NCBI RefSeq assembly: GCF_054482525.1
Contig: NZ_JBTHVG010000003.1
Length of the DNA: 64,000 nt
Strand: one strand, 5' to 3'
Source of the DNA: a plasmid
Part shown: positions 13,551-44,505 of the stretch, piece by piece
How the letters are laid out: each line of letters begins with the position of its first letter
How positions within the stretch are numbered: the stretch's first letter is position 1
Program-made: the position numbers and the translations under genes
Notes under the pieces: model-generated
What the model saw: the letters and a program-made list of their open reading frames with translations, nothing else
What the model was told of the DNA's origin: nothing
The model's database searches: none

Positions 13551-14735
13551 TCATGACTGTCCCTTGTTCATCTTATCAGCATGCTTACGCAGGTACTCTT
13601 TCAGGTCAGCATGAGCGTTGATGATATCGTTCATTTCATCATTGGTCAGAACAAGCGTGTAAGTATCAGTACTGACAGATTCACCTTCTTTAAGCTTGGC
13701 TTCTTCAGCAATACGTTCAAAAATCGGGATCGCGGTGTCTGCAATGACGGTCACAGTCTTTTTGTTCAGAACGCTGGACATGGAAGGTGCTTTACCTGCC
13801 GGGTTCTGTTTAGGAGCGCTGTCCTTTGGAGCTGGAGCCGGTTCCTGTACCGGTGGCGTATCCAGCGTCTCCGTATTGCTTTCATCGTTCAGTTGATCCG
13901 GTACCGGGGTGTTATCGGTAGTATCATCTGCCGGTTGCTCAGCACCGATGTTTTCCGGAGTCTGCGGATCTGCCATGCGCTCTTCTACCTTGGCAGCTTT
14001 GACGAATTTCAGCGTGTTTTTCGTCGCCTTGCCATAGATGGAGATCGCTTTGTTGATGTTATCTACCGCATCCTCACCGCTGTACATATACTCGTCCAGT
14101 GCAACGTACATGCTCACCTGATCGCTCACAAGCATGGTCTGTAGTTCAGAAGGCAGGTCCAGTACGCGAACCATCTGGCGAAGATGCTGCTCTGATTTAC
14201 CACGTTTTTTTGCCAGTTCCGCAAAGGTCTTAGGCTCTTCTTTATCTTCAACCAGACGCTTAATTGAAAGCGCTTCAGCTACGACAGACAGCGCCAGGTT
14301 GGAGTTGCCGGTCAGGGTGAAGAGTTCTGCTTTTGAAGCGCTACCGCGAAACTCTTCGCAGCGAATACGAGTAATGCGTTCACGCCCTTCTGCTTCCAGC
14401 TGGCGGTTTGCAATAGCGATGGAACGGATACGGCAAGCCCCCTGACGCAGTACAGGTACGCCATTAACCATCTGAACAACGATAGGCGTCACGCTGAACG
14501 GGTCTTCCATGTAGGCATCGGCCAGGCTGTTCAGGTGTTCCACAACGTGAGGCATTGAATAGTAGAGCTCGCCCATACCGGCCGTGCGGGTGTTAAAGCC
14601 TTCCTGCTCTACAACAACCGAAGGGTCAATGATAAGGCCGTTGCCTTTACGGGCACCGTTACCAGTGCGTTCCAGGTAACCACGAAGGCTGATTTCGTTG
14701 CTGTTGTTTTTTACTTCAGTTTCGATTGCGGACAT
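13551..14735 (-). CDS. ParB/KorB-family DNA-binding protein (orphan, no adjacent ParA)
   Basis: ParB N-terminal-like segment PIVVQMVNGVPVLRQGACRIRS (compare GERRxRA); HTH-like segment LRQMVRVLDLPSELQTMLVSDQVS; Pro/Ala-rich linker; two copies of the 13-bp palindrome lie just upstream. Confidence 0.6.
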   Translation of the reverse strand: MSAIETEVKNNSNEISLRGYLERTGNGARKGNGLIIDPSVVVEQEGFNTRTAGMGELYYSMPHVVEHLNSLADAYMEDPFSVTPIVVQMVNGVPVLRQGACRIRSIAIANRQLEAEGRERITRIRCEEFRGSASKAELFTLTGNSNLALSVVAEALSIKRLVEDKEEPKTFAELAKKRGKSEQHLRQMVRVLDLPSELQTMLVSDQVSMYVALDEYMYSGEDAVDNINKAISIYGKATKNTLKFVKAAKVEERMADPQTPENIGAEQPADDTTDNTPVPDQLNDESNTETLDTPPVQEPAPAPKDSAPKQNPAGKAPSMSSVLNKKTVTVIADTAIPIFERIAEEAKLKEGESVSTDTYTLVLTNDEMNDIINAHADLKEYLRKHADKMNKGQS

Positions 14736-18545: not shown

Positions 18546-19884
18546 CATAAGCGCTAACTTAAGGGTTGTGGTATTACGCCTGATATGATTTAACGTGCCG
18601 ATGAATTACTCTCACGATAACTGGTCAGCAATTCTGGCCCATATTGGTAAGCCCGAAGAACTGGATACTTCGGCACGTAATGCCGGGGCTCTAACCCGCC
18701 GCCGCGAAATTCGTGATGCTGCAACTCTGCTACGTCTGGGGCTGGCTTACGGCCCCGGGGGGATGTCATTACGTGAAGTCACTGCATGGGCTCAGCTCCA
18801 TGACGTTGCAACATTATCTGACGTGGCTCTCCTGAAGCGGCTGCGGAATGCCGCCGACTGGTTTGGCATACTTGCCGCACAAACACTTGCTGTACGCGCC
18901 GCAGTTACGGGTTGTACAAGCGGAAAGAGATTGCGTCTTGTCGATGGAACAGCAATCAGTGCGCCCGGGGGCGGCAGCGCTGAATGGCGACTACATATGG
19001 GATATGATCCTCATACCTGTCAGTTCACTGATTTTGAGCTAACCGACAGCAGAGACGCTGAACGGCTGGACCGATTTGCGCAAACGGCAGACGAGATACG
19101 CATTGCTGACCGGGGATTCGGTTCGCGTCCCGAATGTATCCGCTCACTTGCTTTTGGAGAAGCTGATTATATCGTCCGGGTTCACTGGCGAGGATTGCGC
19201 TGGTTAACTGCAGAAGGAATGCGCTTTGACATGATGGGTTTTCTGCGCGGGCTGGATTGCGGTAAGAACGGTGAAACCACTGTAATGATAGGCAATTCAG
19301 GTAATAAAAAAGCCGGAGCTCCCTTTCCGGCACGTCTCATTGCCGTATCACTTCCTCCCGAAAAAGCATTAATCAGTAAAACCCGACTGCTCAGCGAGAA
19401 TCGTCGAAAAGGACGAGTAGTTCAGGCGGAAACGCTGGAAGCAGCGGGCCATGTGCTATTGCTAACATCATTACCGGAAGATGAATATTCAGCAGAGCAA
19501 GTGGCTGATTGTTACCGTCTGCGATGGCAAATTGAACTGGCTTTTAAGCGGCTCAAAAGTTTGCTGCACCTGGATGCTTTGCGTGCAAAGGAACCTGAAC
19601 TCGCGAAAGCGTGGATATTTGCTAATCTACTCGCCGCATTTTTAATTGACGACATAATCCAGCCATCGCTGGATTTCCCCCCCAGAAGTGCCGGATCCGA
19701 AAAGAAGAACTAACTCGTTGTGGAGAATAACAAAAATGGTCATCTGGAGCTTACAGGTGGCCATTCGTGGGACAGTATCCCTGACAGCCTACAAAACGCA
19801 ATTGAAGAACGCGAGGCATCGTCTTAACGAGGCACCGAGGCGTCGCATTCTTCAGATGGTTCAACCCTTAAGTTAGCGCTTATG
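18546..19884 (+). mobile_element. IS186 (IS4 family) insertion sequence, complete
   Basis: Terminal inverted repeats CATAAGCGCTAACTTAAGGGTTG at both ends; 11-bp direct target duplication GGGGTTGCCCC (18535-18545 and 19885-19895); inserted in a GC-rich palindrome. Confidence 0.9.
18595..19713 (+). CDS. IS186 transposase
   Basis: 372-aa ORF recognised as the IS186/IS4-family transposase, framed by the IS186 inverted repeats. Confidence 0.9.
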   Translation: MPMNYSHDNWSAILAHIGKPEELDTSARNAGALTRRREIRDAATLLRLGLAYGPGGMSLREVTAWAQLHDVATLSDVALLKRLRNAADWFGILAAQTLAVRAAVTGCTSGKRLRLVDGTAISAPGGGSAEWRLHMGYDPHTCQFTDFELTDSRDAERLDRFAQTADEIRIADRGFGSRPECIRSLAFGEADYIVRVHWRGLRWLTAEGMRFDMMGFLRGLDCGKNGETTVMIGNSGNKKAGAPFPARLIAVSLPPEKALISKTRLLSENRRKGRVVQAETLEAAGHVLLLTSLPEDEYSAEQVADCYRLRWQIELAFKRLKSLLHLDALRAKEPELAKAWIFANLLAAFLIDDIIQPSLDFPPRSAGSEKKN

Positions 19885-20164: not shown

Positions 20165-21016
20165 TTAAACACGAGGCATATAGGTCTGATTCCGATATTC
20201 AATTGGAGTCAGACCTTTTAATTTCAGGCTAATTCTTCTGCTGTTGTAGTATTCAATATATTCCGTAACAGCATCCTTCAGCTCGCTTATATTACTGAAC
20301 TCATCAAGATAAAAACACTCCGACTTTAAGGTTCCAAAGAAACACTCCACCACAGCATTATCCAGACAATTGCCTTTTCTGGACATGCTTTGTTTAATAC
20401 CATGTTCTTTAAGGATATTTTGATATCTTCTCATACGATACTGCCATCCCTGGTCAGAGTGCAGAACAGGATGCTCGTGAGGATTAAGCTTTTTGAATGC
20501 CTGATCGAGCATATTCTCGACCATGTTCATCACTGGTCTTTCCGAAAGGCTGTAAGAAATAACTTCGTTGTTGAAGAGATCTATTACTGGAGACAAATAC
20601 AGCTTGCGCCCATTGACTGCAAATTCAGTAACATCGGTAACCCACTTCTCGTTTGGCCGCGTAGCCTTGAAATCTCTTTGGAGAACATTGGGGGCGGTTT
20701 GCCCTACCTCTCCTCTGTAAGAGCGGTATCGCTTGACCTTAATCGCTGCCTTCAGTGAGAGGATTCCCATCAGGCGCTGAACAGCTTTATGGTTAATCTG
20801 TTTCCCTTCTCGATGAAGAGACAGCGTTACCCTACGGTATCCGTATCGGCCTCTATTCTCATGATAAATCTCACCAATACGCTTTTTAACGTCCGCATAC
20901 TTGTCAGGCTTGCTGAGAGCCTTTAGATGGTAATAAAACGTACTGCGCGGTATCTCCGCAGCCCTGAGAAGCTCATCAAGAGGATAAAACTGCCTTAGCT
21001 CGTTGAGTACTTTCAC
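20165..21016 (-). CDS. insK: IS150 orfB (InsK), DDE transposase domain
   Basis: 283 aa, IS3-family integrase/transposase core. Confidence 0.85.
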
Positions 21017-21534
21017 TTTTTCGTGGGATGAGCTAAGGCTTTCAGCTTTTTTAGATACACAAGCCGCGTTTCAAGAAATCGAACTTGCCTTTCAAGATCC
21101 TCAATGCGTCGGTCTTTTGACAGCTCCAATGCTGATGCCGCTTTTTCTGGATCAACTGATATTGCAATGTTTCTTTTGGTGCCAATCTTGAGCGCGCGTA
21201 AACCAGCTTCTCCGCGCTCTTCATAAACCTTCAGCCACCTGGCTACAGAACCACTACCAGCAAGCATAAAGTGAGCAGCAGCCTGATTAAGGGACATGTG
21301 CTGCTCGATCACCGCTTTCACGACCTTAATACGCAACTCAGGATCAGCACTAACACCTTTAGGTTTGGGAATTAAACCTTTTTCTCCATGTTTTTCATAG
21401 AGGGCAACCCATGTCCTGACCTGGGTTCGGGGGACACCAAAACGTGCCGAGATGATCCTGTAACCATCATCAGTAGTGAAGTAGTGATTCACGACTTCAA
21501 GGCGCTTTTCAAAAGGGTATTTTGGCTTTGACAT
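21013..21534 (-). CDS. insJ: IS150 orfA (InsJ)
   Basis: 173 aa with N-terminal HTH; overlaps orfB in the -1 frame. Confidence 0.85.
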   Translation of the reverse strand: MSKPKYPFEKRLEVVNHYFTTDDGYRIISARFGVPRTQVRTWVALYEKHGEKGLIPKPKGVSADPELRIKVVKAVIEQHMSLNQAAAHFMLAGSGSVARWLKVYEERGEAGLRALKIGTKRNIAISVDPEKAASALELSKDRRIEDLERQVRFLETRLVYLKKLKALAHPTKK

Positions 21535-23877: not shown

Positions 23878-24078
23878 TTATAAGAGGAGTACTGGCAAAG
23901 CTTTGCCAAGTACTTCGGCGGTTGTGTCTACGATTTTACGGATGTCATCGATCTGCGAAGGCTTATTCAACACCACCGTAAAAAGCTCTCCTTCGTTATC
24001 AGCCTGCTCGCAGTTTCCGTATCGGCTCCCGTCGTACAGCTGCACAATACGTGACATAGAAGACTTTGTTTGTTTCAT
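23878..24078 (-). CDS. Small hypothetical protein
   Basis: 66-aa ORF. Confidence 0.35.
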   Translation of the reverse strand: MKQTKSSMSRIVQLYDGSRYGNCEQADNEGELFTVVLNKPSQIDDIRKIVDTTAEVLGKALPVLLL

Positions 24079-24117: not shown

Positions 24118-24342
24118 TCAGAAGCTGGTTTCATGCGCTTCCGGCTGGGACACGAACTGGTATTTGACGCCGCCAGGCACACCTACTGCTTCGGCAATAG
24201 AGTCGCAAAGCCGCGATAAATCATTTAGTGTCATCGGATATTCAATATCTACAGAATATAAAGCACCTGCATTTTCAGCATCTTCGATGTTTTTATACTG
24301 GGCACTAAATATAGCAATGGTCTGAATTTCGTGGTTATGCAT
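24118..24342 (-). CDS. Small protein, paralog family A (with 29307-29546)
   Basis: Shares the motif DIE-PMTLNDLS-LC-S-A-AVG-PGG-KY with the 79-aa protein at 29307-29546. Confidence 0.5.
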   Translation of the reverse strand: MHNHEIQTIAIFSAQYKNIEDAENAGALYSVDIEYPMTLNDLSRLCDSIAEAVGVPGGVKYQFVSQPEAHETSF

Positions 24343-28153: not shown

Positions 28154-28720
28154 TTATTCGTTTTGTTTCTGTTCGTTATACTGCTCAAACCAGAAGACGA
28201 CCGGTTTTACTACAATATGAAGCAAACCAAAACGTTCTGCGGTACGGAAATTCACGCTATATGCGCGAGCCCGTTCAACCTGTTTGGTAATTTCATTTCT
28301 CATTCCTTCAACACTAAAAGCTCCTTTAAAAAGGTTGCAGGGAGCGCATGATGGAAATAAGTTTTCTATTGCATGCAGTTCAGGGTGCATAACCTTACCC
28401 GTACTTCGGGCAACATGAGTTACGCCGCTGCCGACCGGGGCTCTCACCAGTTCAAAGTCGCGTCGAACAGGCTCAACATGATCGGCATGCCACCCTTTTT
28501 CAGGAAGCTTGCAACCACAATAGGCACAACGCCCCCCAAATTTCATTCGCAGCTCAGCTCGCTGTATTTTAGAGATCTTATTTTTAGGTTTTGAGAACCT
28601 ACCATCAGGTGATTCCGCTTTGGATAACTTTGCTGAGGGCTCAGGTAACTCAACTAAATTCCCGTTGATATTTATCACCTTGACCATATCATTTTCCGCC
28701 TTTACTAATCTCACGGGCAC
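28154..28720 (-). CDS. HNH endonuclease-domain protein
   Basis: HNH signature CAYCGCKLPEKGWHADHVEPV ... NLFPSCAPCNLFK. Confidence 0.6.
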   Translation of the reverse strand: MPVRLVKAENDMVKVININGNLVELPEPSAKLSKAESPDGRFSKPKNKISKIQRAELRMKFGGRCAYCGCKLPEKGWHADHVEPVRRDFELVRAPVGSGVTHVARSTGKVMHPELHAIENLFPSCAPCNLFKGAFSVEGMRNEITKQVERARAYSVNFRTAERFGLLHIVVKPVVFWFEQYNEQKQNE

Positions 28721-29306: not shown

Positions 29307-29546
29307 TCAGTATTCCTCCTGAACCCCATTAGGCTCTGTTGTGATTTCATATTTAATACCGCCAGGTGCTCCCACAGCGTCCGCGACCGACTCACACAGC
29401 AGCGAGAGATCGTTGAGGGTCATTGGGTGTTCAATGTCCAGCGTGAAGAGTTTCCCGGCTTGCTTGGCGGCTGTCTTGTCAGCATGTTCAGCATTAAAAA
29501 GGTATACGGTGTGTTTTTCCTGAGCGGGGGTATTTTGATTTTGCAT
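29307..29546 (-). CDS. Small protein, paralog family A (with 24118-24342)
   Basis: Shares the conserved core DIEHPMTLNDLSLLCESVADAVGAPGGIKY with 24118-24342. Confidence 0.5.
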   Translation of the reverse strand: MQNQNTPAQEKHTVYLFNAEHADKTAAKQAGKLFTLDIEHPMTLNDLSLLCESVADAVGAPGGIKYEITTEPNGVQEEY

Positions 29547-29795: not shown

Positions 29796-32180
29796 TTATA
29801 CGACCTGCCTGACCATCCTCATCAGAAGGCGGTTTAACAGTCCTTTCGCTGTCGGGCGATTGCTATCGACATAGTAAAAACCTGTTTTGGTCGTACCGTG
29901 AGCACTGCTCAGCACCCTCAGTTCCCAGATAACGTCACGGATAACGCCGCCATTTTCTGGCTTAAGGCATTCAGATAAATGGCGCATGAAACGAGCTCTT
30001 ACGGCACGGTAATAGCGGAACTCCTCTGGCTGGTTAGTATTTTCTTTCACCCGGAGTCGCTGGTTACACAGAGTTAGAACTGCATCCATCATTCCCGCCT
30101 TCAGCTTCGCCTGGATCGCACCTTGTTGCTGTTCCCTCTCACCTTCGAGTAACGTTAAGATTCTTTCTCCGAGTGCCGTCTTGTTGTGTACGTGCAACTG
30201 TACACAGGCAGCTACGCATGCCCAGAATCTGAACTTTTTTATCTGTCCACGCAATTTCCGGGCTACAACCTGACGGTATGCAGTATCGCTGAGTATTTTA
30301 AAACGCCGACTGGCAACCAGCTCTGGAAGCGACACTCTTTCGCCTATCCCCAGGCGGGAAAAGGTTTGTCCCCGTTGTGCGAGACGATGATAGACAGCGC
30401 CCTTCCCTTTTGAAATTCGGACCGCGCCATAACGAAGAAGATACTGAGCAGCAGTCGTTGGAGTAAACTCACCGTCAGCGATGCTCTGGCGTAACCCGTC
30501 GTATTCATGCCAGATAATCCAGGACGCCGTATCTTCTTCAACAGTCAGCTCATCCTCTTCCTCGAATGCCACGACGACAGAACTGCTCTCTCCGGTCTTT
30601 AGGCTACGTGAAGCCCTGGGGTCAGCCTGCCCGTCAAAATAGGTCATCAGCGGCAACGTATCAGTCAGTCCATCATAAGCTGTACCGAACCGGCCTCCGG
30701 GCAGTTTCATCCAGAGTGGAGCTGGCATTGGTGTACGGGCCACAGGCAGCATGTCAGGCTCATCCTCAAGAAGGTCCAGATCGGCCTCTTCCCAGACTCT
30801 GCGATAGATCTCAATTGCCCGAAACGGGCGAGGGTTGAAACAGTGCAACGACCAGAGGAAATCAACGTGGATCACGTTTGCTTCATGTACAAGCCGAAAT
30901 TGTGGCTCAGCCATACGACGGTTATAAGCCGTATCGTCCACCTCGCCGGAAAGTAGCTTTCTGCGATGCTTTGCCGCACGTCTGGCTTCAACATAATCAA
31001 GGCTGCAACAGACATGAAAAAGACGTTCAGTCAGGGACGAAGAAAAGATATTGGGTTGAAGACGCACATACCCGCCTTCGAACACTTTACGACCGATATA
31101 ATCCCGCAGGCTCCAGTCGTACTGGATCTTAGAAAGAAATCGCTGAAGACGACTTAGGCCTGCCTGATAACCATATTTCTCAGGGTCAGTGCGAAGGAGC
31201 GTTTCCATTGAATGGTCAACCCCTACGGCTGTGCAAAGCGAGCACCCATATCTAGCCCCACAAGCTGAGGTTCGCGTGGGTTTCTCCGGCGACCAGATAC
31301 ACTCTCCGGTGGCGTCTTTATAAAGCGTTGCCAGGCTGAAGTTATCCGGCATAAAGCTTGGTAAAGGGAAGCGGGATTCGGAACCACAGGCCATTAGAAA
31401 AGACCAGATGTCCTGAGTGCGCCACTCCTTTACTGGATAGAGTTCACCACCGTGCTCAGTCAGGGTTACTTTCCTCGCCTGCCCTCCCATTTTGAGGATA
31501 TTTCCGGCCCTTCGGGCACTTTCATCATCCCTGGAGCCCAGCATCAGGCATACCCTGCTTCGTACGGATGCCGGGGCGTTTTTTAGATAACGAGCTTTGG
31601 CCTTGCGCAGGGGGGCGATTTTGTAGTCGGTTGAGCACTGACGGGTTGAAGAATTAGTCCAGGTCGGAAGTCCACGTCCAGTCAGAATGCGGCCTACCCA
31701 GCTCTGCGTAAGAGACGGTTGGGCGACAAGGACTGTGACCGGTAGCTGGTGTTCAGCAATGAACATTCTAAGCTGGTTGAGAACCTGTGAAGCCTGATAG
31801 TGCATCTCAGGGTTTTCGATCAGCGTATCGGACATCTGAATGAAATGATGTTCGCTGATATTTGTGCCGTTACGTACTGCCCTGATCAATGCCATCAGAA
31901 ATAGGTGAAGAAGAGAATGGGAGTCTTTACCGCCACTGTATCCCACGCACATCGTCCATCCGTCCGTAATAGCCTGATAAATAGCAGATGTGGCTGACGT
32001 GACCAGAGAAGAAAGACTCACAGTCTCCTTTTCATCGGTATAGTTCAGATCGGCATCGGTTGTCAGGGTCTCCCAAACATCAGCCCATTTATCATGTTTC
32101 AAAATGGCAGCATTAGCCGCCTCAGGAAAAATAACTTCTGAGGGTAATTCAAGGAATGAGTCACTTTTTTCAATAAACAT
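29796..32180 (-). CDS. PP-loop ATP-pyrophosphatase (PAPS-reductase/DndC-like) domain protein with ~450-aa C-terminal extension
   Basis: PP-loop motif VGYSGGKDSHSLLHL; Cys cluster ACGARYGCSLCT; 794 aa; no dndA/B/D/E-like partners seen nearby. Confidence 0.55.
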   Translation of the reverse strand: MFIEKSDSFLELPSEVIFPEAANAAILKHDKWADVWETLTTDADLNYTDEKETVSLSSLVTSATSAIYQAITDGWTMCVGYSGGKDSHSLLHLFLMALIRAVRNGTNISEHHFIQMSDTLIENPEMHYQASQVLNQLRMFIAEHQLPVTVLVAQPSLTQSWVGRILTGRGLPTWTNSSTRQCSTDYKIAPLRKAKARYLKNAPASVRSRVCLMLGSRDDESARRAGNILKMGGQARKVTLTEHGGELYPVKEWRTQDIWSFLMACGSESRFPLPSFMPDNFSLATLYKDATGECIWSPEKPTRTSACGARYGCSLCTAVGVDHSMETLLRTDPEKYGYQAGLSRLQRFLSKIQYDWSLRDYIGRKVFEGGYVRLQPNIFSSSLTERLFHVCCSLDYVEARRAAKHRRKLLSGEVDDTAYNRRMAEPQFRLVHEANVIHVDFLWSLHCFNPRPFRAIEIYRRVWEEADLDLLEDEPDMLPVARTPMPAPLWMKLPGGRFGTAYDGLTDTLPLMTYFDGQADPRASRSLKTGESSSVVVAFEEEDELTVEEDTASWIIWHEYDGLRQSIADGEFTPTTAAQYLLRYGAVRISKGKGAVYHRLAQRGQTFSRLGIGERVSLPELVASRRFKILSDTAYRQVVARKLRGQIKKFRFWACVAACVQLHVHNKTALGERILTLLEGEREQQQGAIQAKLKAGMMDAVLTLCNQRLRVKENTNQPEEFRYYRAVRARFMRHLSECLKPENGGVIRDVIWELRVLSSAHGTTKTGFYYVDSNRPTAKGLLNRLLMRMVRQVV

Positions 32181-35363: not shown

Positions 35364-36614
35364 TTAAGTCCGATACAGTTCGGCGAGCTCATCCAGCATG
35401 GGGTTACTCTTATATCCCGGTGCGGCCGTAAAAAGGTTTCGGGAAATCGCCAGCCACTCCATGATTTTGTCCGTCGCCAGCCAACGTCTGCCAAGTCGCT
35501 CGGCTGCGATGGGGACTTTATGCAAGCCAGCGAAGGGATCTACAACAAGATCTCCCGGCTCTGTCAAAAACTCAATCAGAAACGCTGCAAGCCTGGTAGG
35601 AGACGTTGCACCGTGCAGCGGAAAACCGAGCTCGCGGGCAATGGAATGGCAAAATCTCGTATCAGCGCAGCTATTGCCGTAAAACAAAGTATTCTTGGGG
35701 ATCGTTCCTTCTGTTTTATTTCCAAAGGAACCGCTTTTAAGCTGGTACGCCCCATCACCATAAAAGGTCGTGCGATTTTCACCGCCTGCTGCCTGCAATT
35801 TTAGATGCTGGTCTGAATGCGGTTGTAGTACACGTAAGTTGTTTGAACGAACCTTACTCGCATCATTGGTAAACCACAGCACAGGCTCATACGATGAGCA
35901 GAGCTGCACCCGTTGCTTACATGCCCAGTGCGTTGGCGATGGGGGCTTACTGCGATTCACCCACTGAAGCCTGTCCATGAGCTCAAGCCCCAGCTTGTCA
36001 CATAATGCCAGTGTCAGACGCTCCAGATACAGAGAACGTGAAGGCCTACCCCTATTAAAGCTATCTTGAGTGATATTCAATGCCACACTTGCGCCCGGTA
36101 CAAGCTGTTTCACGATCGGTTCGAGGATACGCAGAAGCCAGTCAATATAAGCCTGCTCGCCACGCCCCCCTCCGTGCCCGTAGTCTCTTGAATTTCGAAG
36201 GAGGTAAGGTGGCGAGGTCAGGCAAAGATGAATTTGCTCGGTGATATTGCTGAAGAAGGCATAGGCGTTTCCAAAAACCGATGCCCCAAGAGAAGTTGAG
36301 AAACCGACAACACAGAGCTTTTCCCATGACTCATGCAGGTTTGTTTTCGTCTTAGAGGCGTATCTCCAGACGCCCCGTTTTTCTGGAACGCGTTCGATGA
36401 CCCCGGCCTGACGGAGAGTCTGCTGAAACCAGCGAACCTTATGTTTGACGCCGCTGGTTCTGGTTTTATCTGACCCAAATTCTTTCAGTTCGTGCAATTC
36501 GGCATCCGACATGCCAGTTTTACGCTGCACTTCGCGATAAAGCTCGTCGTTGGTCAACGGCGATTCGGAGGCAGCGTAGATATGCGCAATTAAGTCCGTA
36601 TTAATCGTACTCAT
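35364..36614 (-). CDS. DNA methyltransferase (amino-methyltransferase, N6-adenine or N4-cytosine, beta-class order)
   Basis: Motif IV TSPPY precedes the SAM-binding motif DPFAG near the C-terminus; 416 aa; no adjacent restriction endonuclease recognised. Confidence 0.65.
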   Translation of the reverse strand: MSTINTDLIAHIYAASESPLTNDELYREVQRKTGMSDAELHELKEFGSDKTRTSGVKHKVRWFQQTLRQAGVIERVPEKRGVWRYASKTKTNLHESWEKLCVVGFSTSLGASVFGNAYAFFSNITEQIHLCLTSPPYLLRNSRDYGHGGGRGEQAYIDWLLRILEPIVKQLVPGASVALNITQDSFNRGRPSRSLYLERLTLALCDKLGLELMDRLQWVNRSKPPSPTHWACKQRVQLCSSYEPVLWFTNDASKVRSNNLRVLQPHSDQHLKLQAAGGENRTTFYGDGAYQLKSGSFGNKTEGTIPKNTLFYGNSCADTRFCHSIARELGFPLHGATSPTRLAAFLIEFLTEPGDLVVDPFAGLHKVPIAAERLGRRWLATDKIMEWLAISRNLFTAAPGYKSNPMLDELAELYRT

Positions 36615-39176: not shown

Positions 39177-40124
39177 CTAAGACCAGCGGTAATACTTAAA
39201 GTAGTCCTCATTTACAGCCAAAAACTCCCTTAAACCGTTCATTAATCCCTTTTCAAACGCTGTAACGATAAACCGGTATCCGTCCAGTGTTTCAATGTAG
39301 TAGATCCCGCCCGGTGTTATTCCAACATGCAACACCTCGGCTGTCATCATAAACTGGCCTTCCGGAAAATCATGCGACAGGTATATAAAACCCGTCGTGG
39401 CCGGTGCGGGTGTGGCATTCACTAAGACACCGTTAAACTGCTGCCCGTGCCTCGCCGGTACAAGCTCACTTCCCCTGGTTGACTTATCGAGCAGCCCCTT
39501 AACATCTTTTTGCTCTTTAGATGAGGTATAGCCCCGCACATCACTCCCATCACCTGGGCGAGAGCCGGTGCCGACATGTGCAAGACGACGGTAAGCGCTG
39601 CGCATATTGATGTGGCAGGATGCCCCGGCTCTACCCTGAAGCCTTACGCCAAAATCTTCGCAAAGTAATAAAATCTGACGTAGCTGGTGTTCATACACGG
39701 ACGCAGAAAGTGAAAGGTTGAAACTGGAAAAGGTCAGTTCTAAAACCTTTTCCCGTTTGTCATTGAAATGTGCTTCCAGCCTGATGATTGGCTTTTCCGA
39801 CATTGCAAAAGCTTTGTCCGTTGCTCTGTACCGGCATTCATCTCCGAAACATTCTTCAACAACGCTGGCTATAACCGTGTCGTGATCGCCATCTTCCGGA
39901 GCTGGCACAAAGATTTCAAATTGTGCCGGTGTCTCCGGCTCCAGCAGAACGGGATATAAACGCGGAGAATTAAGCAATGCGCATTCAGAATTAATGAGCT
40001 TAACCCAGGCGCTTTTGTCGTCCGGATCCTTAAGCTGCTGTCCAAGGTTATCGCAAAAGTCTACTATCTGACGGGTATGCTCATCCGTGACTGCACAGAT
40101 CAGGTTAAGACCATGCGTGGCCAT
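39177..40124 (-). CDS. Hypothetical protein (about 315 aa from ATG at 40124; the listed ORF extends to a TTG at 40220)
   Basis: Long ORF downstream of the HigB-like gene; start uncertain. Confidence 0.45.
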   Translation of the reverse strand: MATHGLNLICAVTDEHTRQIVDFCDNLGQQLKDPDDKSAWVKLINSECALLNSPRLYPVLLEPETPAQFEIFVPAPEDGDHDTVIASVVEECFGDECRYRATDKAFAMSEKPIIRLEAHFNDKREKVLELTFSSFNLSLSASVYEHQLRQILLLCEDFGVRLQGRAGASCHINMRSAYRRLAHVGTGSRPGDGSDVRGYTSSKEQKDVKGLLDKSTRGSELVPARHGQQFNGVLVNATPAPATTGFIYLSHDFPEGQFMMTAEVLHVGITPGGIYYIETLDGYRFIVTAFEKGLMNGLREFLAVNEDYFKYYRWS

Positions 40125-40366
40125 ACTCAATTCCCGGGTTCGGGACTGGGAATTGATCGACCAGGGGTTAAGTGAAAGCGAAATAGGGCTTATGGAAGGG
40201 ACGACCGTCTCATTCTGCAAATCTGTAAGCTGGCAGTTCGCAGTAGGCTTCGGGGAAAGGGTACTAAATATGTAACTTGCCTATTGTTTAGTACTGGCCT
40301 GGATATAAAACATCGCGTCCATGCTTGTATCCCGGGATGAAATTGAAAATAGCTTCATTTTTAACC

Positions 40367-41617: not shown

Positions 41618-44008
41618 TTATGTTTGAGGGAATTCTATAGCAAATGTGGCCGTGCCAGATTGACCACTTACAGCGGGAGTAACGGGATACGTGCGCTCTT
41701 CACCATTACCAAGATCCAGTGACAGCGATTTAGTTTCACCAGGCTGGACCGTAACTCCGGCAACCGTAACGCCGAACTGGGCATTTTTCTGAACAGTCAG
41801 GGTTCCGTTTAACTGTCCGGTAATGATAGAACCGTCCTGACGCCGCAACACACTGGTTCGGATGATGGCCAGCGGCGTGTTGTCCGTTGCTTTCAGTGCT
41901 ACGGCTGTGGCCAGCGTCTTGAGATTATCCAGCATAATCAGATTCGCAGGCTGGTAGGTAAAATTAAGCGTTTTAGTGGTCCGGTTACCTGATTCGTCAA
42001 TAGCCAGTGCCTCCAGATGATACATCTGTCCCGATTCGTCAGTGTTGGGGAAGATTCTGGGGTATTCCGGAATAAAGACATCCTTGGATAACGGCGTGAA
42101 TGCCAGGGTGACCTTTTCAGAGTTAGGTCCACCAGCGAGCTGAAGCGATGTCAGGGAAGCATCCCCAGAGGCATCAGTAACGCTTATGCGAAGGTTCTCA
42201 AGCCCTTTAACCAGTTTTCCTTCTGCGTCTGCGCCATTAAAACTGAACGCGATAACCGGAAGCGTTGAGTCAATTTTCAGCGGTGCATTAAGCGTTTTGG
42301 TTCCGGTGTTTCCAACAAGATCCGTGGCAGAGACGCTAACCACCGTATAATCCCCGTCCGGTAGACCAGCGTATGAGAAGGTGGCGTTTTTGGTTTTATA
42401 ATCGCTTTCACTGACGGTCACAGGCTTCAGCGTGAAAGGTTCCCCCCGGGCATTTTTAAGGGTGGCTTCGAAAACTTTGGTATCCCAGTAGCTGATGTTC
42501 CAGGCGTTGACGCGATCATTATCGGTGGCCGTCATAGTGATTGTCTTGGAGGCCTTGTTTACCTGAGCGACATTAACCACCGGTGGGTTGTTATCCCAGA
42601 TAACCGTAAAATTACCAGCAAGCGCATCGAATATGCTGTCACCATCTTTTCCCGAGTAAAGGTGCAGATACTCAAATCCTTTGTCACTGGTGTAGTTGAA
42701 GTTAACCGTCATCTCGCATGAACTTTGTCCGATAGGTATAGTGCAGAACCAGGCTGCATTTTTTACCGTTCTGAACTTTTGCACGTATGGTCGGGGTTCA
42801 GCGGTTACCTTTATGCGGCTAATGGTGGCGGTTTTAACGCTGATTGAGGCCTGAGTTAACCACTCACTGGTATCACTCCGGTACATCTCTTTAGCCACTA
42901 TCTTCGGGGCTATTTCCATCGCCGGGGCTGGAGTGAAGTTGAGGGAGTTATGATGAATTCGTCTTACTCCTCCTGCCAGAGTCTGGAATTCATGATAAGT
43001 ATCCCCCACATTGGGATATATGTATTTGAAAGTATAAATATTATAAGTGCTATCGGACGTCTGGAAATTCGAGTCCGCCCAGCCATATTTGGAACCGTTA
43101 ACAGCAGTAAAGTCACTTTTTTTCCTTAATACCCGTACGGAAATAGGGTTCTGGAAGACGGTCATGCCAGACTGATAAGTGACCCATGATCCGGTAGTGG
43201 CGTCCTGCACCTGGATGATATCGTCAGGCTTAACCCGATCAATTACGCTTCGGCGGCTTAGTTCGATCCTGTTTCCCGCTTTGTCATAAAGGTAGATCCC
43301 CACTTTATATTCAGAGCGGTTTTCCGGTGCCAGGGCATTGCTGCTTGCGTCGGCGACTTGAACGGTTACGCTACCTTCCACTGTATTAATTTCCGCTGGC
43401 TTTTTACGCTCCACTCCAGCGGCATCGGTTATGAAATATTCAGCATTAGCAAGCCCGGAACCTTTATCACTCAGTCCATTAAAGACCAGTGCCTGGACGC
43501 TGGCGTACTGCATACCGGCTGGTACTGAAGTGAAGATCGCTTCGCTGCCAAAGTTCCACCCGTTTCTCGTATAACTTATGGTACCCGTTGCCGGAGGCGT
43601 TCGGTCAATTGCAAGCGGGTAATCCTGCCGGGAGACCTCCTTCCCTTGCAAGTCGGTAATCACCTCTCTGAGGGTGAAGCTATCTTCTCCCATCGCTGGT
43701 ACGGTCAGAGTCTTGCCGTAATAATCAAAGCCTGTCGAAGATGTGGTACGGTCATCTACGGTAACCAGGCTGCTTTTCGTGCTCCAGATGAGGCTCCCGT
43801 CACTTTTCAGCAGACTGAGCGTAATATAACGGTCCAGACCGGAAATAACGGCAACGTCAAAGCTCGTTACCGGATTAATCCATACGGATGCAGGCGATAC
43901 GGTCTTTTTAACGTTCAGGGTATCTTTAAAGCTGAATTCTGCGATTTCAGCGGAAGCTCCTGCGCTGAAACCTGCAAATGCAATAAGCAGGGCTAGTTTG
44001 ATTTTCAT
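41618..44008 (-). CDS. Secreted Ig-like (Big-domain) surface protein, paralog 1 of 3
   Basis: Signal peptide MKIKLALLIAFAGFSAGASA with AGGAG upstream; repeated D-x-(A/S)GN Ig-like motifs; conserved ISGLDRY N-terminal and LDLGNGEERTYPV C-terminal segments shared with the other two. Confidence 0.6.
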   Translation of the reverse strand: MKIKLALLIAFAGFSAGASAEIAEFSFKDTLNVKKTVSPASVWINPVTSFDVAVISGLDRYITLSLLKSDGSLIWSTKSSLVTVDDRTTSSTGFDYYGKTLTVPAMGEDSFTLREVITDLQGKEVSRQDYPLAIDRTPPATGTISYTRNGWNFGSEAIFTSVPAGMQYASVQALVFNGLSDKGSGLANAEYFITDAAGVERKKPAEINTVEGSVTVQVADASSNALAPENRSEYKVGIYLYDKAGNRIELSRRSVIDRVKPDDIIQVQDATTGSWVTYQSGMTVFQNPISVRVLRKKSDFTAVNGSKYGWADSNFQTSDSTYNIYTFKYIYPNVGDTYHEFQTLAGGVRRIHHNSLNFTPAPAMEIAPKIVAKEMYRSDTSEWLTQASISVKTATISRIKVTAEPRPYVQKFRTVKNAAWFCTIPIGQSSCEMTVNFNYTSDKGFEYLHLYSGKDGDSIFDALAGNFTVIWDNNPPVVNVAQVNKASKTITMTATDNDRVNAWNISYWDTKVFEATLKNARGEPFTLKPVTVSESDYKTKNATFSYAGLPDGDYTVVSVSATDLVGNTGTKTLNAPLKIDSTLPVIAFSFNGADAEGKLVKGLENLRISVTDASGDASLTSLQLAGGPNSEKVTLAFTPLSKDVFIPEYPRIFPNTDESGQMYHLEALAIDESGNRTTKTLNFTYQPANLIMLDNLKTLATAVALKATDNTPLAIIRTSVLRRQDGSIITGQLNGTLTVQKNAQFGVTVAGVTVQPGETKSLSLDLGNGEERTYPVTPAVSGQSGTATFAIEFPQT

Positions 44009-44505
44009 GGGTTGTCTCCTGATCAGGTTCCCCATGATACTTTTTCAGTGTTCGAGATCTTTTCGGGAAAATAGCTAATTTTAATGTTTTTCTTTTCTGC
44101 CCGGCGGGACCTGTTTTGTTCCATTTTTATCAGTGAATGTAATGAGACCGATTCGTCCACTGTTAACAGTGTAAAAGCGAGGTTGAAAGCCAGCTTTGAG
44201 AAGGTTTTCAATAGCTGAAAAAAAATCTTTTTTGAGCATTGGTTTCAAGATGGTTTTCCTTTTATGCCCGGTGCCGCCGGGACGGTGGCATTAAATATAC
44301 GCCATGTAAGTAAATTAATTTTTACCCATTTGATTGTCAATACAAACAAAAAATAAACCATGTTTATTATTTTACCAGCGATGCTATTTTAAAGTCCGTC
44401 TAAAATAAAAAACCAAAAAGTTAAATTTGAAGCCATCCTTCCTAAATTCATTTCTTGCGCATATTAGCCCCTGCTTTAAGTATATAATTTTTGAAAAAGT
44501 TGTCT

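What the first reader, a model, noticed from the sequence alone, without database searches (positions are those of the whole stretch)
29796..32180. Isolated 794-aa PP-loop (PAPS-reductase/DndC-like) protein with a large uncharacterised C-terminal half
The N-terminal about 330 aa carry the PP-loop SGGKDS and a Cys cluster (ACGARYGCSLCT) typical of PAPS-reductase-like sulfur or adenylyl transferases such as DndC and SspD, which act in DNA modification systems. Here the gene stands alone, with no dndA/B/D/E- or ssp-like partners, and is fused to a further about 450 aa of unknown function. Neighbours are an HNH nuclease (28154-28720), small unknown genes and two DNA methyltransferases a few kb away. 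It is a candidate for a non-canonical DNA modification, anti-restriction or defence function.
Basis: partly seen in the sequence, partly recalled or inferred. Interest (0 to 1): 0.75.

Follow-up and report, generated by a model that had tools for sequence, protein, structure and literature searches.

The report
Stand-alone DndC-like enzyme on resistance plasmids
A conserved backbone gene of IncHI2 multidrug-resistance plasmids encodes a solitary relative of the DNA-phosphorothioation enzyme DndC, fused to a domain with no known structural relative; it probably modifies nucleic acid to help the plasmid establish in new hosts, but nobody has tested this.

Summary
Window 29796-32180 (minus strand) encodes an intact 794-aa protein with the PP-loop SGGKDS and five invariant cysteines. 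The window is IncHI2 plasmid backbone.

The protein belongs to a distinct, fast-evolving sister clade of canonical DndC:
- It shares every conserved catalytic-domain residue with DndC, but fails the curated DndC score cut-offs.
- In 26 diverse loci it never has dndA, dndD or dndE nearby; 49 of 50 canonical dndC loci have dndD.
- No Dnd partner is found anywhere in the 64-kb window.

The "unknown C-terminal half" splits into three parts:
- residues 356-455, weakly DndC-like;
- residues 456-655, a clade-specific module under purifying selection, with no PDB fold match and only 461 representative clusters among 1.84 billion proteins;
- residues 656-794, a variable basic helical tail.

The family lies on about 2,660 plasmid records (IncHI2, IncHI1, IncC and others), inside co-directional blocks that hold orphan methyltransferases and antirestriction genes. 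It is absent from phage records.

A published R27 deletion removes the ortholog without loss of plasmid stability.

Most likely it is a self-contained Fe-S, ATP-dependent sulfur-transfer enzyme acting on plasmid DNA as an establishment or anti-restriction function. That is inferred, not shown. I class it as a new variant of a known kind, with moderately high interest.

The parts
29796..32180 (-). Complete gene for the 794-aa solitary DndC-like protein (stop codon 29796-29798).
   Evidence: ORF list. Identical in IncHI2 plasmids and annotated only as 'PAPS reductase family protein'. AF2 model has mean pLDDT 90.1.
32109..32180 (-). Residues 1-24, a disordered N-terminus.
   Evidence: pLDDT <50 for residues 1-24. 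Not aligned in distant homologs.
31116..32108 (-). Residues 25-355: PP-loop ATP-pyrophosphatase domain of the DndC / PAPS-reductase type, carrying the Fe-S cysteines.
31920..31937 (-). PP-loop motif SGGKDS (residues 82-87).
   Evidence: Translation. S82, G84, K85, D86 and S87 are invariant in 85 family members and in canonical DndC.
31635..31637 (-). Cys182, an invariant cysteine in the R-x-C-x4-K motif.
   Evidence: Translation. Invariant in the family and in canonical DndC.
31233..31301 (-). Cysteine cluster C294, C307, C313, C316 (E-C...C-G-x-R-[FY]-G-C-x-x-C).
   Evidence: Translation. All four are invariant or nearly so in the family and in canonical DndC.
30816..31115 (-). Residues 356-455: beta-hairpin plus long helices, the part of the extension still shared with canonical DndC.
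   Evidence: R359, R364, G370 and W443 are conserved in both clades. PADLOC DndC model PDLC02661 aligns through residue 474. dN/dS 0.035.
30216..30815 (-). Residues 456-655: clade-specific module, with an acidic sub-region (456-545) and a basic one (546-655) containing the invariant R603.
29799..30215 (-). Residues 656-794: variable, basic, all-helical tail, present only in the ~800-aa forms.
   Evidence: Absent from the 580-670-aa homologs. Long helices. pI about 10. dN 0.45 against the IncHI1-type ortholog.
35364..36614 (-). 416-aa orphan DNA methyltransferase, the only neighbour that recurs next to distant family members. Associated context, not a proven partner.
   Evidence: phrog_67 DNA methyltransferase E 7.7e-19. 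Annotated as site-specific DNA-methyltransferase. Homologs lie within 10 kb of family members in L012, L016 (Azospirillum) and L020 (Thioalkalivibrio).

Best explanation
The gene encodes an active, self-contained member of a plasmid- and ICE-borne sister clade of DndC.

Domain by domain:
- Residues 25-355 are a PP-loop ATP pyrophosphatase. They carry the same five cysteines as DndC: the ligands of an Fe-S cluster plus the sulfur-relay pair.
- Residues 356-655 are a clade-specific elaboration of the DndC C-terminus. A basic helical tail follows in the long forms. I propose this module does the substrate engagement that DndD and DndE provide in the Dnd system.

Proposed mechanism (inferred): sulfur comes from the host cysteine desulfurase IscS. 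The enzyme uses ATP to adenylate an oxygen on a nucleic-acid substrate and replaces it with sulfur. The most plausible substrate is the phosphate backbone of the plasmid's own DNA, giving a phosphorothioate-like mark.

Proposed role (inferred): an accessory establishment or anti-restriction function, comparable to the orphan methyltransferases encoded in the same co-directional gene blocks. It is dispensable for replication and stable inheritance.

What is shown: the homology, the conserved catalytic residues, the solitary status, purifying selection, mobile-element association, and dispensability of the R27 ortholog.

What is inferred: enzymatic activity, the DNA substrate, the sulfur chemistry and the benefit to the plasmid.
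For: Homology and catalytic residues:
- DndC homology: PADLOC E 4e-38 and NCBIfam TIGR03183 E 6e-34 over residues 60-364.
- The PP-loop, C182, C294, C307, C313, C316, E122, K187, R217, E220, R224, R310, D322 and S324 are conserved in both the orphan clade and canonical DndC. The DndC cysteines are described as three Fe-S ligands plus a DndC-specific dyad (PMC10853773; PMC12839542).
- These residues are retained across a clade that has diverged to 26% identity. dN/dS of 0.04-0.08 over residues 25-655 argues for a working enzyme rather than a decoy.

Solitary status:
- 0 of 26 orphan loci have DndD, DndE or DndA; canonical loci have them in 49, 33 and 24 of 50.
- No conserved small partner is found among the four genes on either side.
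- Nothing Dnd-like is found in the window.

The extension:
- It always accompanies the PP-loop domain.
- It has basic sub-regions.

Context:
- About 2,660 plasmid records carry the family, 2,063 of them conjugative.
- Family members sit in co-directional blocks with orphan methyltransferases, an antirestriction gene, RadC/JAB, DUF1380, DUF4942 and toxin-antitoxin genes.
- A 'PAPS reductase' family is listed among the unannotated families enriched in plasmid leading regions (PMC11541004, supplementary file 3).

Dispensability:
- R27 deletion 5 (67,055-74,086) removes the ortholog (69,684-72,059), and only deletion 16 destabilised the plasmid (PMC4853401).
- Truncated alleles exist in some IncHI2 lineages.
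Against: - No biochemical or genetic test of this family was found in the searched literature.
- In canonical systems DndC has not been shown to work without DndD and DndE, and nothing shows that the C-terminal module binds DNA.
- The module matches no known DNA-binding fold.
- No phosphorothioate phenotype is known to me for hosts of IncHI or IncC plasmids (own knowledge).
- Methyltransferase neighbours were detected in only 6 of 26 loci.
- I could not establish the position of the gene relative to the leading end of transfer. It lies about 27 kb beyond the relaxase and coupling-protein genes, and the one paper I could read places oriT differently.
- I could not verify that the leading-region 'PAPS reductase' family of PMC11541004 is this clade.
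Confidence: 0.4

Rival explanations
1. It is the same enzyme type but acts on RNA (for example tRNA thiolation), a nucleotide or small molecule, or a protein terminus. It would then serve host manipulation or regulation rather than DNA modification, as with other PP-loop enzymes (TtcA, TtuA, NcsA, TilS, LarE, Cap9) or the IbrA-type regulators.
For: - A weak TtcA / TilS PP-loop match.
- The clade-specific module has no recognisable DNA-binding fold.
- There is no DNA-handling partner.
Against: - DndC is by far the closest relative: E 1e-38, against 1e-3 for TtcA.
- The full DndC cysteine set is kept, including the dyad reported as unique to DndC.
- DUF3440, the IbrA hallmark, is absent.
- The gene neighbourhoods are rich in DNA-modification and antirestriction genes.
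Confidence: 0.2
2. It is a counter-defence aimed specifically at phosphorothioate-based immunity (Dnd, Ssp, Pbe, BREX type 4). It would either mark plasmid DNA so that PT-dependent restriction treats it as self, or interfere with the host's DndC-dependent machinery.
For: - Close kinship to DndC.
- One plasmid type encodes a DndB-like DGQHR protein two genes upstream.
- A 2026 preprint notes PAPS reductases in Aca-regulated phage anti-defence operons, and cites work in which a phage PAPS reductase promotes evasion of Dnd (10.64898/2026.07.27.740549). I did not see the cited paper itself.
Against: - PT-based systems are sporadic in the enterobacterial hosts of IncHI and IncC plasmids (own knowledge), yet the gene is a near-universal backbone component.
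- Matching a host's sequence specificity without DndD and DndE is hard to explain.
- The DndB-like neighbour occurs in only 1 of 26 loci.
- The family is absent from phage records.
Confidence: 0.15
3. It is part of a plasmid-borne defence or exclusion system, for example a sulfur-mark 'writer' working with the nearby HNH nuclease as effector.
For: - An HNH endonuclease lies 1 kb downstream on the same strand.
- That protein has weak similarity to retron / PtuB HNH effectors.
- Canonical DndC is itself part of a defence system.
Against: - The HNH gene is not a conserved neighbour: no shared cluster was found across the 26 loci, and none is annotated beside the R27, IncC or Citrobacter-plasmid homologs.
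- PADLOC gives no system-level match beyond DndC.
- The HNH protein best matches a common phage homing-type HNH family (phrog_2118).
Confidence: 0.07
4. It is an ordinary sulfate-assimilation enzyme (PAPS/APS reductase or CysD-like) carried as plasmid cargo, or a decaying non-functional relic.
For: - The database name is 'PAPS reductase family protein'.
- The fold resembles CysH and CysD.
- Truncated alleles exist in some lineages.
Against: - The Pfam PAPS_reduct match is weak (E 3.7e-05).
- No cys-operon context appears in any locus examined.
- Strong purifying selection and invariant catalytic residues across a deeply diverged clade.
- The intact allele is found in 1,754 plasmid records.
Confidence: 0.03

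Closest known systems
DndC (DptC), the PP-loop / [4Fe-4S] sulfurtransferase of the DndABCDE DNA phosphorothioation system
   Same: - Catalytic domain is homologous at about 29% identity.
- Identical PP-loop; the same five cysteines and the same charged motifs.
- Weak similarity continues to about residue 455.
- Probably the same chemistry.
   Different: - A separate clade in a neighbour-joining tree; 36% mean identity within the clade, against 64% within canonical DndC.
- Scores 118-130 bits against curated cut-offs of 290 and 536. Canonical DndCs score 650-680 bits over their full length.
- Never linked to dndD, dndE or dndA.
- Carries a clade-specific module of about 200 aa and often a 140-aa tail.
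- Lives on plasmids and other mobile elements.
SspD and BrxP (PAPS-reductase-like components of SspABCD and BREX type 4)
   Same: PP-loop enzymes of DNA phosphorothioation systems with extra C-terminal domains.
   Different: - Only a marginal HMM match to BrxP (E 4.7e-06) and none to SspD.
- BrxP and SspD are reported to lack the DndC cysteine dyad that this protein keeps (PMC12839542).
- No Ssp or Brx partners are annotated nearby.
[4Fe-4S]-dependent PP-loop thiolases (TtuA, NcsA, TtcA) and LarE
   Different: Sequence similarity is limited to the PP-loop (TtcA E 0.0016). They have different cysteine spacing and act on tRNA or a cofactor.
Assimilatory PAPS/APS reductase (CysH), CysD and the PAPS domain of FAD synthase
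   Different: No metabolic gene context. The five-cysteine DndC signature and the 440-aa extension are absent from those enzymes.
IbrA-type proteins (PAPS reductase domain plus DUF3440, paired with ParB-like IbrB)
   Same: Solitary PAPS-reductase-like proteins on mobile elements. One plasmid type pairs the family with a ParB-superfamily DndB-like gene.
   Different: No DUF3440 match. The comparison with IbrA otherwise rests on my recollection and was not tested by sequence.
Orphan DNA methyltransferases and antirestriction genes of plasmid establishment (leading-region) islands
   Same: Same kind of genomic setting: long co-directional blocks of small genes with methyltransferases, antirestriction, RadC, DUF1380, hok and ParB-like genes. 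Dispensable for maintenance.
   Different: This is a functional analogy only. The chemistry would be sulfur or adenylyl transfer, not methylation. Early transfer and early expression were not established here.

Membership tests
Canonical DndC (Dnd system) | PP-loop ATP-pyrophosphatase motif SGGKDS | tested here: met
   Residues 82-87. Invariant in the family and in canonical DndC.
Canonical DndC (Dnd system) | Conserved cysteine set (Fe-S ligands plus the DndC-specific cysteine dyad) | tested here: met
   C182, C294, C307, C313 and C316 align with invariant cysteines in 20 canonical DndCs. Sequence-level test only.
Canonical DndC (Dnd system) | Score above the curated family cut-off (NCBIfam TIGR03183 at 290.4 bits; NF005316 at 536 bits) | tested here: not met
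   117.6 and 129.9 bits.
Canonical DndC (Dnd system) | Full-length match to DndC profiles, including the C-terminal region | tested here: not met
   PADLOC PDLC02662 covers only model positions 15-301 of 481 at 130 bits. Canonical DndCs cover 8-472 at 650-680 bits. Profile-profile comparison of the C-terminal regions is marginal (P 0.013).
Canonical DndC (Dnd system) | Genomic linkage to dndD and dndE (usually also dndB, and dndA) | tested here: not met
   0 of 26 family loci have DndD, DndE or DndA, against 49, 33 and 24 of 50 canonical loci. No hit in the six-frame translated window.
Canonical DndC (Dnd system) | [4Fe-4S] cluster, ATP pyrophosphatase activity and phosphorothioate formation in DNA | not testable with these tools
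   Needs biochemistry and mass spectrometry.
SspD / BrxP | Significant match to SspD or BrxP profiles | tested here: not met
   BrxP E 4.7e-06 over the PP-loop region only; no SspD hit.
SspD / BrxP | Linkage to sspB/sspC or brx/pglZ genes | tested here: not met
   None appears among the annotated genes of the matching IncHI2 record across the window. No recurrent neighbour in the 26 loci. No dedicated Ssp or Brx HMM scan of neighbours was run.
Assimilatory PAPS/APS reductase (CysH) | Membership in a sulfate-assimilation (cys) gene context | tested here: not met
   All contexts examined are plasmid or mobile-element blocks.
Assimilatory PAPS/APS reductase (CysH) | Strong match to Pfam PAPS_reduct over the whole domain | tested here: inconclusive
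IbrA-like (PAPS reductase + DUF3440) | DUF3440 domain after the PAPS-reductase domain | tested here: not met
   The Pfam scan returns only PAPS_reduct and a sub-threshold ATP_bind_3.
Plasmid leading-region anti-defence genes (functional class) | Located within the first-transferred region and encoded so that the transferred strand is the template | tested here: inconclusive
   The gene lies in a 35-kb minus-strand block that starts just past the relaxase (mobH) and traD operon and points towards it. The nick site and direction of transfer in IncHI2 could not be established. A 'PAPS reductase' family is listed as leading-region-enriched in PMC11541004, but I could not verify that it is this clade.
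Plasmid leading-region anti-defence genes (functional class) | Measurable protection of the incoming plasmid from host defence | not testable with these tools
   Needs conjugation assays.

The most novel reading that the evidence does not exclude
A single polypeptide carries out DNA sulfur modification (phosphorothioate-type) with no DndD/DndE-like partner. Its clade-specific C-terminal module would provide DNA engagement. Major multidrug-resistance plasmids (IncHI2, IncHI1, IncC) would use it to mark their own DNA and escape restriction in new hosts. That would be a new, non-methyl kind of plasmid self-protection and a minimal phosphorothioate 'writer'.
Probability: 0.3. Interest if true: 0.85.

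Novelty: new variant of a known kind. Interest (0 to 1): 0.6.

Why it matters
This gene is a near-universal backbone component of IncHI2 plasmids. Orthologs or homologs occur in IncHI1 (typhoid) plasmids, IncC plasmids and many other conjugative plasmids: about 2,660 of 72,556 plasmid records.

It carries only a misleading metabolic name, and no study of it was found in the searched literature.

If it is a self-sufficient DNA sulfur-modifying enzyme, three things follow:
- It would show how broad-host-range resistance plasmids evade restriction by a route other than methylation.
- It would show which parts of the Dnd machinery are dispensable for the chemistry.
- It would provide a one-protein tool for installing backbone modifications.

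Even if the substrate turns out to be different, the conserved C-terminal module of about 200 aa has no structural relative, and would be a new domain attached to a well-understood catalytic core.

Tried and rejected
- DUF3440 / IbrA-type architecture: the Pfam scan shows no such domain.
- Ordinary PAPS reductase: rejected on gene context, the weak Pfam score and the DndC-specific cysteines.
- A solved structure of a close relative: none by sequence or by profile.
- A known fold for the C-terminal module:
  - Foldseek against AFDB50 returned only unannotated family members.
- Informative domain fusions in longer family members: P0214 (956 aa) showed only PAPS_reduct in Pfam.
- A hidden conserved partner gene: BLAST clustering and phmmer among the four genes on either side in 26 loci found none.
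- A redox partner: the neighbouring gene annotated 'flavin reductase' (39177-40220) has no Pfam or NCBIfam support.
- Promoter and terminator scan around the gene: counts were not above shuffled expectation.
- Relation of the canonical DndC C-terminus to the clade-specific module: hhalign was only marginal (P 0.013).
- Literature: ten searches found no paper on this family. The polyvalent-protein survey, the early-conjugation transcriptome paper, the IncHI1 proteomics paper and the pSTM6-275 paper do not mention it.
- Leading or lagging position in IncHI2 and IncC: not resolved. The IncC record examined is interrupted by resistance islands.
It succeeded with a 16-sequence alignment.
Full report
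**1. The observation**

SGGKDS is residues 82-87 and the cluster C294...ACGARYGCSLC316 is present; I checked the coordinates by translation.

The DNA is identical or nearly so in 991 plasmid records, 580 of them at >=99% identity. There it is annotated only as "phosphoadenosine phosphosulfate reductase family protein". A representative record, pSTM6-275, is typed IncHI2A, MOBH, MPF_F.

The layout of the window is:
- It begins inside the mobH relaxase gene, followed by traD.
- From about 8.9 to 44 kb there is a long run of mostly small minus-strand genes. This block contains the finding.
- It ends near the Ig-like proteins and repHI2.

**2. Anatomy of the protein**

Profile searches recognise only the N-terminal part:
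- Pfam gives a weak PAPS_reduct match at residues 78-264.
- NCBIfam gives DndC (TIGR03183, 117.6 bits, cut-off 290.4) and PRK06850 (129.9 bits, cut-off 536) over residues 60-364.
- PADLOC gives four DndC models at E down to 4e-38, one of them reaching residue 474, and BrxP only at 4.7e-06.
- PHROGs gives phage "PAPS reductases" only at 1e-13 or weaker.

Homologs as distant as 26-30% identity align from about residue 25 to about 650. Only the ~800-aa forms carry the last 140 residues.

I modelled the conserved extension (352-655) on its own, with pLDDT 91:
- In AFDB50 it finds only 182 proteins. The fifty shown are all unannotated members of the same family, including the pHCM1 (IncHI1) protein Q935R1.
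- A profile of the extension, searched against 1.84 billion representative proteins, finds only 461 clusters. The domain almost always sits at about residues 300-600, behind an N-terminal domain.

So the extension defines the family and is not a mobile, reusable domain.

**3. Relation to canonical DndC**

A scan of one genome per species returned two kinds of loci:
- Family members whose match runs past residue 580.
- Canonical dndC genes (Nostoc, Streptomyces, Clostridia and others) that match only residues ~52-361.

In a joint alignment of 20 sequences of each kind, every conserved catalytic-domain residue is shared. These are the PP-loop, C182, C294, C307, C313, C316, E122, P124, K187, R217, E220, R224, R310, D322 and S324. 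A few shared positions continue further (R359, R364, G370, W443). Beyond about residue 455, profile-profile comparison is only marginal (P 0.013).

On the catalytic domain the two groups form clean separate clades. Canonical DndCs are 64% identical to each other on average. The orphan clade averages 36%, with a minimum of 26%. Between the groups the figure is 29%.

Canonical DndCs score 650-680 bits over their full length on PADLOC DndC models; this protein scores 130 bits.

The literature describes DndC as a PP-loop ATP pyrophosphatase with a [4Fe-4S] cluster on three cysteines plus a distinctive cysteine dyad (PMC10853773). BrxP and SspD are reported to lack that dyad (PMC12839542). The protein here keeps all five cysteines.

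**4. The gene is solitary, here and across the family**

I clustered all predicted proteins within 10 kb of the central gene:

| Neighbour | Canonical loci (n=50) | Orphan-clade loci (n=26) |
|---|---|---|
| DndD | 49 | 0 |
| DndB | 43 | 1 |
| DndE | 33 | 0 |
| DndA | 24 | 0 |

Cluster identities were confirmed with PADLOC.

A more sensitive phmmer comparison of the four genes on either side found only pairwise conservation between closely related elements, and no family-wide partner. HMMs for DndA, B, D and E built from the canonical loci find nothing in any frame of the 64-kb window.

The only neighbour that recurs across distant members is the 416-aa DNA methyltransferase (window 35364-36614). 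It reappears near members in Azospirillum and Thioalkalivibrio. Overall, methyltransferase-like neighbours were detected in 6 of 26 orphan loci and 0 of 50 canonical loci. The queries were four methyltransferases taken from three of those six loci, so the test has limited sensitivity.

**5. Where the family lives**

tblastn finds the family in 2,659 plasmid records, 2,063 of them predicted conjugative:
- IncHI2: about 990 records at >=95% identity.
- An IncHI1-type group at about 75% identity, including R27.
- IncC at 47% identity.
- Plasmids of Citrobacter, Aeromonas, Proteus, Burkholderia and Cupriavidus, among others.

No full-length member occurs in 50,697 phage records. The single apparent hit is an IncC plasmid record.

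Annotated contexts are long co-directional blocks of small genes:
- IncC: two DNA methyltransferases, a YfaE-like ferredoxin, a YfbR-type deoxynucleotidase and a primase.
- A Citrobacter MPF_F plasmid: a DndB-like DGQHR protein, Fic, JAB/RadC, an N6-methylase, DUF1419, an antirestriction protein, DUF1380 (twice), DUF4942 and toxin-antitoxin genes.
- IncHI2 and R27: methyltransferase, HNH, hok, DUF957, DUF3085, DUF905 and a weakly ParB-like protein.

These are the gene families typical of plasmid establishment and anti-restriction islands. Samuel and Burstein list a 73-member "PAPS reductase" family among unannotated families enriched in leading regions (PMC11541004, supplementary file 3, sheet "Other unknown leading families"). 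I could not verify that it is this clade.

I also could not determine whether the IncHI2 block is transferred early. It lies beyond the relaxase and traD genes and points towards them. No accessible paper settles the nick site or the polarity of transfer.

**6. Constraint and dispensability**

Against the IncHI1-type ortholog (76% aa identity), dN/dS is:
- 0.05 for the catalytic domain.
- 0.035 for residues 356-455.
- 0.076 for residues 456-655.

dS is near saturation, so these values are rough. The tail evolves fast (dN 0.45).

Some lineages carry truncated or internally deleted alleles, and one allele is interrupted by ISVsa5.

In R27 the ortholog is at 69,684-72,059. Published deletion 5 spans 67,055-74,086. 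The authors report that deletions 1-17 and 19 were all obtained, and that only deletion 16 reduced stability in E. coli MG1655 (PMC4853401).

The gene is therefore a selected accessory function, not a maintenance function.

**7. Most likely mechanism**

The catalytic residues are retained across a deeply diverged, fast-evolving, mobile-element clade. That points to an active enzyme with DndC-type chemistry: ATP-dependent activation followed by sulfur transfer from an Fe-S / cysteine relay, with the host's IscS as the probable sulfur source.

Because DndD and DndE are never present, I suggest the clade-specific module takes over substrate engagement. The module has an acidic sub-region (456-545), a basic sub-region (546-655) containing the invariant R603, and a basic tail.

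The closest homology and the gene company both favour DNA as the substrate and plasmid self-protection as the benefit.

My confidence by claim:
- A distinct, active, solitary DndC-clade enzyme of mobile elements: about 0.85.
- The specific claim of DNA sulfur modification serving establishment or anti-restriction: about 0.35-0.4.

The rivals are:
- A non-DNA substrate.
- Counter-defence aimed at phosphorothioate-based immunity. A preprint notes PAPS reductases in phage anti-defence operons.
- A defence module working with the HNH gene. The HNH gene is not a conserved neighbour.
- A metabolic or decayed gene. This is effectively excluded.

**8. Novelty**

The catalytic core is a known kind. What is new:
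- The clade as a whole.
- Its obligate solitary state.
- Its private C-terminal module with no structural relative.
- Its near-universal presence on clinically dominant resistance plasmids.

No paper among those searchable addresses it. I class it as a new variant of a known kind, with an interest score of 0.6.

Noticed in passing
window 29307-29546 (-), 24118-24342 (-), 23878-24078 (-): Three small paralogous genes (79, 74 and 66 aa) of unknown function lie in the same minus-strand block; one is immediately downstream of the DndC-like gene. The first two are 50% identical (E 2e-26) and the third is a distant copy (E 1e-05). None matches NCBIfam or PHROGs.
   Followed up: partly
window 35364-36614 (-); L016 7783-9132; L020 2429-3688: The 416-aa orphan DNA methyltransferase has close relatives next to very distant members of the DndC-like clade, in Azospirillum and Thioalkalivibrio (phmmer E 7e-29 and 1.5e-114). 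This may mean the two genes travel together.
   Followed up: partly
window 39177-40220 (-): This gene is annotated 'flavin reductase' in the RefSeq plasmid record, but has no supporting Pfam or NCBIfam match here. The name looks unreliable.
   Followed up: yes
window 13551-14735 (-): A 394-aa hypothetical protein has a weak ParB/Spo0J-type domain (TIGR00180, E 5e-07, below cut-off). ParB-like genes are typical of plasmid leading regions.
   Followed up: no
window 28154-28720 (-): The HNH endonuclease matches a phage HNH family strongly (phrog_2118, E 1.7e-55) and retron/PtuB HNH effectors only weakly. It is not conserved beside homologs of the DndC-like gene on other plasmid types.
   Followed up: partly
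window 29796-32180 versus its flanks: The DndC-like gene lies in a 2-kb bin with 52% G+C, while the flanking bins of small genes have 42-44%. This suggests a different origin or a different coding constraint from the AT-rich IncHI backbone.
   Followed up: no
window 18595-19713 (+) and 20165-21534 (-): IS421-type and IS150-type insertion sequences sit next to a hok-family toxin gene inside the block of small backbone genes, as in pSTM6-275.
   Followed up: no
window 41618-44035 (-) and 47629-50049 (+): Two ~805-aa proteins with Ig-like domains flank the end of the block. R27 carries similarly annotated Ig-like proteins in the syntenic region, plus the separate 1,432-aa RSP protein; papers listed link such IncHI Ig-like proteins to conjugation.
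   Followed up: no
plasmid records NC_012555.1, NZ_CP088223.1 and others; proteins P0009, P0018, P0029: Several IncHI2 lineages (R478-like Enterobacter and Klebsiella plasmids) carry alleles that lack the PP-loop domain: only residues 312-794, or an internal deletion of residues 170-345. Two records have an ISVsa5 insertion in the gene. So the gene is repeatedly lost.
   Followed up: partly
PADLOC model PDLC03333 ('MTase_II'): This model, labelled a type II methyltransferase, scores 335-358 bits on bona fide DndC proteins and 79 bits on the protein studied here. It appears to be a DndC-like model with a misleading name.
   Followed up: no
L004 1492-1716 (IncC plasmid): A 74-aa YfaE-like 2Fe-2S ferredoxin gene lies about 6 kb upstream of the IncC homolog, in the same co-directional block. 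It could be an electron donor for an Fe-S enzyme, but no equivalent was found in the IncHI2 window.
   Followed up: no
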